Below are positions 6,401 through 46,846 of a stretch of 64,000 bases of DNA, piece after piece. The notes beneath the pieces were generated by a model. That model saw only the letters and a program-made list of their open reading frames with translations. It did not search any database and was not told where the DNA came from. Both the position numbers and the translations under genes were made by a program. Every line of letters starts with the position of its first letter. Position 1 is the stretch's first letter. This DNA is from Saccostrea cucullata (taxonomy: Eukaryota): positions 1 to 64,000 of the forward strand of contig NW_026940237.1 in NCBI RefSeq assembly GCF_032062105.1. Direction: 5' to 3'.

Positions 6401-9400
6401 CATGACTTTCTAGAGATGATAGCAGGTGTCCCTTTTACTTACCTGTCAGCGTGTGTTGTGTTACAGCGACAAGGTTTGCTACAATCGCTTCCAAATTTCC
6501 AGTCATCACATGCTAAAACAAGGTAACACTTACTCATGTAAAAATATATTATATGCTAATTTTACTACAACAGACACACACAAAAATACAAATACACACA
6601 CGAGAAAATAGAGGAATTAACTGAACAGAAGCAACGATAGATAATCGATAGATAATCGAAGGATAATCCTATCTGATATGTAAATTGTAAAGGAATCTTT
6701 ATATTCAATTTGAAGGGAAGAAACAAAACATTCTTATGTCGTGACATGCGCACTTACCTCGGATTTCACAAGTCGGGCCGACAAATCCCGGTACGCAGCG
6801 ACAATGGCCGGTCACATGATCGCAAGTCCCGCCATTTTGACAATTACATTGTTTTGAGCAAAACATTCCATACGAACCAATAGGGCACTCCTCTGTACAG
6901 CTGTGTGTCAAATGAAAGTAGGAAGAAATCTTGTAATAAAAATTTATCTTCCAATATTATATGTTTATTGACGAAAGCTAGCTCTACAAAACGAACACTC
7001 TTCATTATTTTTCTTTCTAGATGTAGTTAAAAGACAATCTATTTCAAAATAAAAGACTATATAATGTCTAATGGGAAACTCAGTCAAATTCAATTTCATT
7101 TTCTTTTCAATCCAATGCTAAATTTATTGCTAAATAATCAGCCATGTGACCTACTCTTCTCCAACATATCCGGGTCCGCAGATACAACTTCCGGTTTTTG
7201 GATCACAGGTGGCGTTGTTATAACAATTACAGATCTGATCACAGTTAGATCCGTACCACCCCTCCTCACACGGTTCTGAGCAGATGTCGCCCTGGAATGT
7301 TAAGTGAAGATTAGTTTATATTCTCTCTAATTCCCTTAAAACAATAGAAATAAATGAAACTTTTACATTATTTATTGTACAATTATCCCCATACAACTGA
7401 ATGAAATATATAGGTTTGGTAATTATGTTCCCCAAACGAAGTTGGGGAACATATTGTTTTTACTCTGTTTCTTATTATTATTATTTTTCTTCTTCTTCTT
7501 CCTGGGTACTTTTTTGTCCGGGAATGATCTTGTAAACTGTTCGTCCAATGTAGGTAAAACCTTTTTAGGGTCAGTAGACATGTTATGTAGATTTGCGGAA
7601 TCAAGGTCATTTTGCGCGCACGTGCTTGCAAGAGCGCGCACGTGCAACACGAGAAATGACCAATATAATAGATATAGCCGCAACTTTTCTATTTTTTCAT
7701 GAAATGCTTTGAAACTCATAATGTGAGGATATATTAGTAGCATATACATGATGACATGGTCAAAATAGCAAGATCTCATGCGCATGCACGTGCGCTGCGC
7801 TCTGATTGGCTGAAACTAAAGTCTCAATATCTTTCTTGTTTTTTGACAAAATCCTTTGAAATTTTGAACATAGCCATGCATTAGGATATCCTACAACATG
7901 ATGTATAACAATTATCATACAAGCACGTGCATGCACGTGCGCTGCAATCTGATTGGCTTAAAGATAGCTATAACTCCCTTGGTTTTCAACCAATCAGGAT
8001 GGGATTTGGAACATAGATAGATATAATGGATTCCTACAAGAAGGCATGTCTCCATGCACATGCATACACGTGCGTGTATGTGCGCTGCAATCTGATTGGC
8101 TGAAACTTTAAACAGCTATAACTCCCTTGGTTTTCAGCCAAACGGAGTGGGATTTAGAACATAGATAGGTATAACAAACTTCTACAAGAAGGTATGGTCA
8201 TCATGCTCAAGTATGCACGTGCATGCACGTGAAATGAGTAAAATCAAAAATACACTTGAATGAGCATATTCTTTAATACTTTTGGATTAAATATTTTAAT
8301 ATTTAGTATATTTAATATATAGATTGTGTAGACAAGATGATATGGTCATTATGCACATGCATTAACATGCGCACGCGTGTAATGCTAAAATTTGAATGAA
8401 CTTGGTACACTTCTGGGTAAATGTTGTTAAAGTCTCAAATGCATAGAGTTTGTCTTATTTAATGAAGCTTACAGGAAATATTGCACCAAAAGGGATTTGG
8501 GGAGCGTTTGGGGAACATCTGTAACGGTCCCCGTTACAATTAGCACTAGTTATTCATTGCAGAGGTACTAAATCAACTAGTCAAAAATAGTTCTTAAATG
8601 ATAGATGGTGCATATTCAGATAATTTTAAATACTCAAAACTATATTATTTTTATAATTCAAAACACTATATTGAGTTCATTTGAATATTAATATTTATGT
8701 AAATTATTCAAATATTTCCTAAACAAACCTTCCATCCGGGTTTACATGAACAACTTCCGGTGTCTGTGTTACATCCGGCCCCGTTCTGACACTGACACGT
8801 GGAATTACAATGGGCATCAATAGAGCCTTGTGGACAACGAGATTCACAGCTAAAAATAGATCAAATATTAAACAACTGATAAAAAACAGACAGGACTTTT
8901 TTTACATTAAGATGTAGACCTATAAAGACTACGAACATTATAATTTCAATGCAAGTAATTTATATGTTTTATGATTCCTGTATTAATCAAAGTTTTCCTA
9001 CAATTACTGAAATGTAAGTGATGATAAAGTACATGTGCTAAAAAATAAAAATTTATGGTAAGGTAACCTATGATTCTGAATCACATTAAGCAATTAGAAT
9101 TATGTTTATCGATGAAATGTAATTCATGTATTAATCAAAGTTTTTCCGCAATTAATGAAAAGTCACTAATGATTACGTACAGACCACCGTGGTACCCCGG
9201 GGGACAGAAGCAGGCTCCGTTGGTGGCGCTGCAGGTGGCCCCGTTCTGACACTGACACATCAGCTGGCAATTAGGTCCATAGGAGCCATCGGGACACCTC
9301 GTCTGGCATCGTTCTCCCGTGTAACCTAAAAAAGGAGAGATAACTCGAATTAATTATGACATTTACACAACATCTGAATGTTAGGGTCTAAGGGAACTGA

Positions 9401-46846: not shown

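What the first reader, a model, noticed from the sequence alone, without database searches (positions are those of the whole stretch)
8960..45800. Recurrent pattern: tandem repeats nucleated at splice junctions
At least four unrelated repeats include an exon edge plus splice site and extend only into the intron (9867-10073, 39389-40430, 42925-43385, 45590-45800). Two more abut MEGF10 junctions (8960-9180, 9326-9665). Units are ~65-110 bp and of different ages. Selection explains why arrays do not extend into exons, but not obviously why so many start at junctions. Inference: a junction-biased duplication process (e.g. transcription or splicing-coupled repair) that supplies decoy splice sites and raw material for duplicated exons such as the EMI pair. 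This is my best candidate for an undescribed process here.
Basis: inference. Interest (0 to 1): 0.7.

Follow-up and report, generated by a model that had tools for sequence, protein, structure and literature searches.

The report
Oyster splice-junction "mirage" minisatellites
Eight exon edges in three oyster genes are copied head-to-tail into the adjoining intron, a repeat type already named in lancelets and chickens; in 70 other genes of this genome such repeats sit on splice junctions about three times more often than chance, mainly among arrays of three or more copies, so the bias likely lies in how they grow rather than where they start.

Summary
Confirmed, but a known kind. All six arrays exist, and I found two more (MEGF10-like acceptor 13410, caveolin donor 48789): 8 of 64 mapped junctions. 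They match amphioxus "mirages", chicken "exon stuttering" and the human F7 VNTR. This scan has noted them before (35 findings, at least 10 genomes, this one included).

Independent test: 70 other genes of this genome, 1,035 confident introns. Of 68 locus-specific arrays, 31 span a junction against 14.5 expected (odds x3.3, CI 2.0-5.5; x1.9-3.6 across detectors and filters). There is no excess if arrays borne by dispersed repeats are counted (27 of 113, 32 expected).

The excess lies mainly in arrays of three or more copies (20 of 35, 6.6 expected). Two-copy duplications show no significant excess (11 of 33, 7.9 expected; up to x3.4 not excluded). This split was exploratory.

Breakpoints are not pinned to splice sites, decoy GT/AG are not purged, sparse RNA uses the exon-proximal site, and low-CpG genes are not richer. 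Best reading: ordinary duplications, filtered by splicing, then preferential amplification of exon-containing units. The cause is inferred; splicing-coupled origin is not shown.

The parts
8877..9181 (-). MEGF10-like donor (exon end 9181) duplicated: unit about 148 nt with 1-2 exon nt and GT; one copy 8877-9033, 78% alike
   Evidence: donor inferred from frame, no RNA joint seen
9292..9576 (-). MEGF10-like acceptor 9325 array: unit about 111 nt with 34 exon nt; copies 9403-9498 (77%) and 9500-9576 (75%), AG lost
9867..10077 (-). MEGF10-like acceptor 9915 duplication: unit 106 nt with 49 exon nt; copy 94% alike, decoy AG intact
13373..13678 (-).
   Evidence: RNA joint 13410-14558 uses the exon-proximal acceptor
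39389..40428 (+). ADAM10 donor 39431 array: 68-nt unit with 43 exon nt, 16 extra copies (74-100% alike), 8 keep GT
   Evidence: RNA depth 0 over 39656-40431 in three runs
42915..43385 (+). ADAM10 donor 42979 array: degenerate unit of about 73 nt, mostly exon end plus donor, about 5-6 copies
45569..45796 (+). ADAM10 acceptor 45751 array: unit about 72 nt with 46 exon nt, 2 extra copies (75-77%), AG lost
48787..48888 (+).
257..14671 (-). Host gene: MEGF10/Draper-like EGF-repeat receptor, about 20 exons (label inferred from architecture; EMI label recalled from the cysteine pattern, Pfam gave no hit on the 33-aa half exon)
29619..46846 (+). Host gene: ADAM10-like metalloprotease, 13 exons, intact frame with zinc motif [11 protein letters not shown]
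   Evidence: (Reprolysin, ADAM10_Cys-rich)
48718..49964 (+). Host gene: caveolin, two coding exons

Best explanation
These are junction-spanning minisatellites (mirages): short tandem duplications that straddle an exon edge, likely kept only when the exon and one full splice signal stay intact, and likely amplified to many copies more often than purely intronic duplications. Step 1 (inferred): 20-150 nt duplications arise by ordinary repair with at most a modest junction bias. Step 2 (footprint seen): selection removes those that break the exon or the splice signal; young survivors carry at least 9 intron nt at donors and at least 22 at acceptors. Step 3 (seen): units that hold the exon edge make up most multi-copy arrays. 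Cause of step 3 (inferred, about 40%): homology-dependent repair or unequal exchange that starts in the conserved exon and mispairs in the array, because oyster introns likely differ too much between alleles to pair well. The spare splice sites are likely ignored, so the arrays are likely neutral.
For: Junction excess in 70 independent genes with two detectors: 27 of 49 vs 13.2 and 31 of 68 vs 14.5; it holds stratified by gene (x3.2-3.3) and, in the BLAST set, without the two hottest genes (x2.3-2.5). Multi-copy 20 of 35 vs 6.6 (x6.5), two-copy 11 of 33 vs 7.9 (x1.6), heterogeneity p=0.007, same direction in all three unit-length classes. No multi-copy array lies 11-100 nt from a junction (0 vs 9.7 expected), so nearness to an exon is not enough. 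Intron share is shorter at donors than acceptors (p=0.01, n=18), as branch point and pyrimidine tract would require. Planted arrays are detected about equally in both classes. GT/AG of decoys are not lost faster than other positions (15 of 292 vs 553 of 5,609). RNA uses the exon-proximal acceptor at 13410 and has no depth over the 39656-40431 copies. Two SLC6 genes with 97% CDS identity share two arrays at 45 vs 13 and 4.5 vs 7.4 copies. F7 IVS7 shows first-donor use in such an array (PMC1557585, abstract).
Against: The copy-number split was exploratory and samples are small; the two-copy interval reaches x3.4 and a splice-safe null raises odds by about a quarter (x3.6 to x4.7 overall), so a twofold origin bias is not excluded. 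The excess shrinks to x1.9-2.6 with looser repeat filters and vanishes if dispersed-repeat arrays are counted (27 of 113 vs 32.1). 8 of 31 junction arrays come from one gene. SLC6 genes alone show no excess (5 of 14 vs 4.2). Young units are exon-heavy (mean scaled intron share 0.35, p=0.02), which also fits a higher duplication rate in exons. Four multi-copy arrays stop 0-4 nt short of the exon. The recombination step has no direct test here. RNA depth was low and from other individuals that differ at several sites per exon and may lack these arrays.
Confidence: 0.6

Rival explanations
1. Origin bias: first duplications arise more often in or at exons, through transcription- or splicing-coupled damage (R-loops, polymerase pausing) or exon chromatin, and only spill-overs survive.
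For: Two-copy odds x1.2-1.6 are above 1 and the interval reaches x3.4; young units are exon-heavy; hot genes exist (overdispersion p=0.02).
Against: Two-copy excess is not significant in either detector and is below the multi-copy excess (p=0.0004 to 0.02). Breakpoints are spread, not pinned to splice sites. No expression data were tested.
Confidence: 0.22
2. Retention only: duplication and growth are uniform, but arrays anchored in an exon cannot be removed by large deletions and so persist and accumulate.
For: Predicts excess in multi-copy but not fresh duplications, as seen. Some arrays predate paralog duplication.
Against: Intronic arrays 11-100 nt from an exon should be shielded almost as well, yet 0 multi-copy arrays lie there against 9.7 expected.
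Confidence: 0.1
3. No special process: the excess is an artefact of removing transposon-borne arrays, of a few hot genes and of gene choice.
For: No excess when all arrays are counted; one gene gives 8 of 31; only four gene families were sampled.
Against: Removed arrays are mostly 134-175 nt units found at many loci, a different origin, and their sequence was removed from the null as well. Excess persists with looser filters and without hot genes (multi-copy 10 of 15 vs 3.2). Shuffles give 1 false array per Mb.
Confidence: 0.06
4. Methyl-CpG repair in methylated exons produces staggered nicks that are filled in as duplications.
For: Oyster gene-body methylation favours exons (recalled, not from a call).
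Against: Low-CpG genes have 28 arrays per 2,572 junctions, high-CpG genes 10 per 382; gene-level correlation nil. The window's ADAM10 and MEGF10-like genes have high CpG o/e, 0.85 and 0.82.
Confidence: 0.02

Closest known systems
Amphioxus 'mirage' minisatellites (Adh3, globins BflGb6 and BflGb9, troponin C, PGBD5); PMC3087553 and PMC3902484, passages read; the original Adh3 paper (PMC117041) is not held and is known only through these
   Same: Tandem units spanning an exon-intron boundary, at donors and acceptors, units of tens to about 160 nt, many decoys with GT/AG, splicing apparently normal, copy number variable, edge unit left out of homogenisation.
   Different: Host is an oyster; here a null-model count is added (about x3) with the excess in multi-copy arrays. 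Somatic instability was not tested.
Chicken 'exon stuttering' on dot chromosomes; PMC12954441, passages read
   Same: Lateral part of an exon plus its splice site copied through the intron; median exon part 36 nt, median 4 copies; regional concentration; mechanism open (repair or meiotic gene conversion proposed).
   Different: Chicken cases sit on GC-extreme chromosomes and span a median 1.75 kb; oyster arrays are mostly 0.1-1 kb in a 34% GC window. In the passages I read, exon stuttering is treated as a subset of intronic stuttering, with no junction-versus-intron null.
Human F7 intron 7 37-bp VNTR; PMC1557585, abstract read
   Same: First unit spans the exon-intron boundary; downstream pseudo-donors are functional but silent because the most upstream donor is chosen.
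   Different: Single locus, donor only; scanning was shown by mutagenesis in mammalian cells, not in oyster.
Internal tandem repeats modifying gene structure in human segmental duplications; PMC2812944, passages read
   Same: Minisatellite expansion at exon-intron boundaries can alter gene structure.
   Different: There many repeats stay in exons or create introns; no intron gain is seen in this window.

Membership tests
Mirage minisatellites / exon stuttering | Tandem unit contains an exon edge and its splice site | tested here: met
   8 arrays; two hold only 1-3 exon nt
Mirage minisatellites / exon stuttering | Extra copies lie in the intron; exon and frame intact | tested here: met
   ADAM10 translates without stops; MEGF10-like exons open
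Mirage minisatellites / exon stuttering | Locus-specific origin, not a dispersed repeat | tested here: met
   No hit elsewhere in about 1.8 Mb sampled; genome search with the ADAM10 donor region hit only this locus (one array)
Mirage minisatellites / exon stuttering | Decoy splice sites normally silent | tested here: inconclusive
   Joint 13410-14558 in 4 runs at few reads; zero depth over 39656-40431; depth low, joint tables cut, other individuals
Mirage minisatellites / exon stuttering | Copy-number variation between alleles or close copies | tested here: inconclusive
   Seen for sampled near-identical gene copies (45 vs 13, 4.5 vs 7.4 units), not for the window's own arrays
Mirage minisatellites / exon stuttering | Somatic or germline instability | not testable with these tools
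   needs single-molecule or pedigree typing
Transposon-borne tandem arrays (134-175 nt cores) | Unit found at many loci | tested here: not met
   The 8 junction arrays have no dispersed hits; the window's 146-148 nt arrays do

The most novel reading that the evidence does not exclude
Exon edges are amplification hot spots in highly polymorphic marine invertebrates: repair between homologs starts in conserved exons, breaks down where intron alleles diverge, and pumps exon-edge units into multi-copy arrays, so mirage density would be a genomic read-out of heterozygosity and recombination across lancelets, urchins, brachiopods and bivalves.
Probability: 0.25. Interest if true: 0.65.

Novelty: new member of a known kind. 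Interest (0 to 1): 0.35.

Why it matters
The repeat type is known and likely harmless, but why it crowds exon edges is open in the papers I read. A measured excess of about three-fold that sits mainly in amplified arrays shifts the question from where duplications start to why exon-containing units grow, which can be tested with population long reads. Practically, such arrays mislead gene annotation (false mini-exons appeared in my own alignments) and offer many natural tests of splice-site choice.

Tried and rejected
BLAST self-search missed about half of planted two-copy duplications in both classes, so I wrote a banded aligner; its first version hid arrays behind strong neighbours and was fixed. 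The 'adj' identity was faulty and was redone: enrichment is the same for young and old arrays (x3.7 vs x3.5), so the apparent 'young arrays are more enriched' result was dropped. Methyl-CpG origin: not supported. GC-rich units duplicating more: intronic arrays are not GC-richer. Selection against decoys: not seen. Monotonic polarity of divergence: not seen; in several arrays the exon copy differs more from its neighbour than inner copies do from each other. Microhomology at breakpoints: ends too blurred to call. Rfam: no match in the window. ADAM10 splice joints were not listed because repeat joints filled the table. Literature searches with no hit for oysters or bivalves: (0 papers); one search gave no genome-wide junction test among 15 listed titles; and one search gave nothing used. 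Two papers (PMC117041, PMC2791625) are not held; supplements were not opened.

Full report
Setting. The window is G000:C22374:1-64000 in a 1.17-Gb animal genome. Proteins of this genome are 87-90% identical to oyster ABCC proteins over the 104-aa piece searched, so the host is an oyster (Ostreidae). It holds a MEGF10/Draper-like gene on the minus strand, an ADAM10-like gene and a caveolin gene. The MEGF10 and EMI labels rest on architecture and recall; Pfam confirmed EGF, Reprolysin, ADAM10_Cys-rich and Caveolin, and gave no hit for the EMI-type half exon.

Observation. All six arrays exist, and two more were found, at the acceptor 13410 and the caveolin donor 48789. Units are 58-148 nt with 1-65 exon nt, and copies are 74-100% alike. 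The largest, at the ADAM10 donor 39431, has 16 extra copies, 8 with GT, five of which score above the real donor. Short-read contigs of run X1 cover the three ADAM10 arrays in whole or large part. The other arrays in the window are mostly dispersed-repeat cores or simple repeats. Among locus-specific arrays in mapped introns 8 of 9 span a junction, 2.2 expected, but the window was picked for this.

RNA. Three RNA runs have no depth over 39656-40431 and at most 0.12 over 43148-43535. The joint 13410-14558 appears in four runs at 1, 1 and 4 reads and one contig, so the exon-proximal acceptor is used. Depth was low, only 15 of 47 joints were shown, no ADAM10 splice joint was among the 15 of 150 shown, and the RNA came from animals that differ from the window at several sites per exon. 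Rare decoy use is not excluded.

Independent test. I mapped exons in 79 regions (13 dynein heavy chain, 17 myosin, 17 ABCC, 32 SLC6) with a spliced protein aligner, dropped 9 near-identical paralogs and kept 1,035 introns with well-aligned flanks in 70 genes (571 kb, 437 kb outside dispersed repeats). The null places each unit uniformly among starts that are wholly intronic or span one junction. BLAST detector: after setting aside 64 dispersed-repeat arrays and 2 whole-exon or whole-intron cases, with four calls made by hand (two moved to intronic), 27 of 49 span a junction vs 13.2, odds x3.6 (2.0-6.5). Banded aligner, no hand calls: of 136 arrays in these introns, 59 were dispersed repeats, 3 spanned two junctions and 6 had periods under 18 nt; 31 of the other 68 span a junction vs 14.5, x3.3 (2.0-5.5), the same when stratified by gene. 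Shuffles gave 1 false array per Mb. Looser repeat filters give x1.9-2.6, and counting every array gives no excess, 27 of 113 vs 32.1. About 1.5% of junctions carry an array; one dynein gene carries 8 of the 31. SLC6 alone shows no excess.

Where the excess lies. Splitting by copy number was exploratory. Two-copy duplications: 9 of 24 vs 7.8 and 11 of 33 vs 7.9 (x1.6, 0.8-3.4). Three or more copies: 18 of 25 vs 5.4 and 20 of 35 vs 6.6 (x6.5, 3.3-13.2). The difference holds across filters (p 0.0002-0.02) and in each unit-length class. Multi-copy arrays lie on the junction (20) or within 4 nt (4), none 11-100 nt away where 9.7 were expected. Simple shielding from deletion therefore does not suffice. 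Planted arrays were found about equally in both classes.

Anatomy. The exon share of the unit is compatible with uniform, so breakpoints are not fixed at splice sites. Young units carry 9-39 intron nt at donors and 22-74 at acceptors, which fits selection for one complete signal (inferred); older units go down to 3 and 9 nt. After allowing for that minimum, young units lean toward exon sequence (p=0.02, n=18). Decoy GT/AG are not eroded, and 69 of 132 intact decoys score at least as well as the real site (copies within an array are not independent). Low-CpG genes are not richer in arrays. Close gene copies share arrays with different copy numbers.

Mechanism. Seen: moderate junction excess, concentrated in multi-copy arrays; spread breakpoints; tolerated decoys. 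Inferred: ordinary duplication, a splicing filter, then faster growth of exon-containing units. I favour homology-dependent repair or unequal exchange starting in the conserved exon; this step is untested, about 40% likely.

Known work. Amphioxus mirages (PMC3087553 and PMC3902484, passages), chicken exon stuttering (PMC12954441, passages) and the F7 VNTR (PMC1557585, abstract) describe the same structure; PMC2812944 (passages) treats boundary minisatellites in human paralogs. I found the mirage papers by search before looking at earlier scan notes; those notes led me to the chicken and F7 papers. Searches for an oyster or bivalve report returned none, within open-access holdings only. This scan has 35 similar findings in at least 10 genomes and two in this genome; one look-up for the copy-number split found none.

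Verdict. Real, known kind, new examples, with a measured excess and one new, provisional clue about its stage. Interest 0.35.

Noticed in passing
window 43657-44305 (+): ADAM10 intron with AT-AC ends, 5' ATATCCTT and a TCTTAAC branch-like motif 8 nt before the AC: a minor (U12-type) intron by consensus (recalled); the frame joins correctly. It holds an inserted dispersed repeat with inverted ends.
   Followed up: partly
window 13309-13410, 12895-12996, 12579-12680 (-): Three intact 102-nt exons of equal phase encoding the first half of the EMI-type domain, candidates for mutually exclusive splicing; only the first has clear RNA support.
   Followed up: partly
G000:C12694, dynein heavy chain gene (L060-L064): Hot gene with 8 junction arrays; one acceptor duplication appears to leave an extra in-frame stretch inside an exon.
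   Followed up: partly
G000:C13471 and C23165 (L227, L232): One SLC6 intron is filled from both ends, by a 16-nt donor array and a 61-nt acceptor array, with different copy numbers in two near-identical gene copies.
   Followed up: partly
window 30836-31416, 38081-38873, 54345-55233: 30-nt satellite arrays flanked by 10-nt AACTATAGTT-type repeats at several places, likely carried by a transposon.
   Followed up: no
window 44836-45195: Two GC-rich 8/22-nt arrays in inverted orientation inside an ADAM10 intron, part of a dispersed repeat.
   Followed up: no
window 800-2560 (+): Broken reverse-transcriptase / GIY-YIG-like retroelement (label from recalled motifs; Pfam gave no hit on one piece) in the last long MEGF10-like intron, flanked by a direct repeat of about 150 nt.
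   Followed up: no
window 30658-30792: Five identical 27-nt copies in an ADAM10 intron, the only locus-specific array in the mapped introns that is not on a junction.
   Followed up: partly
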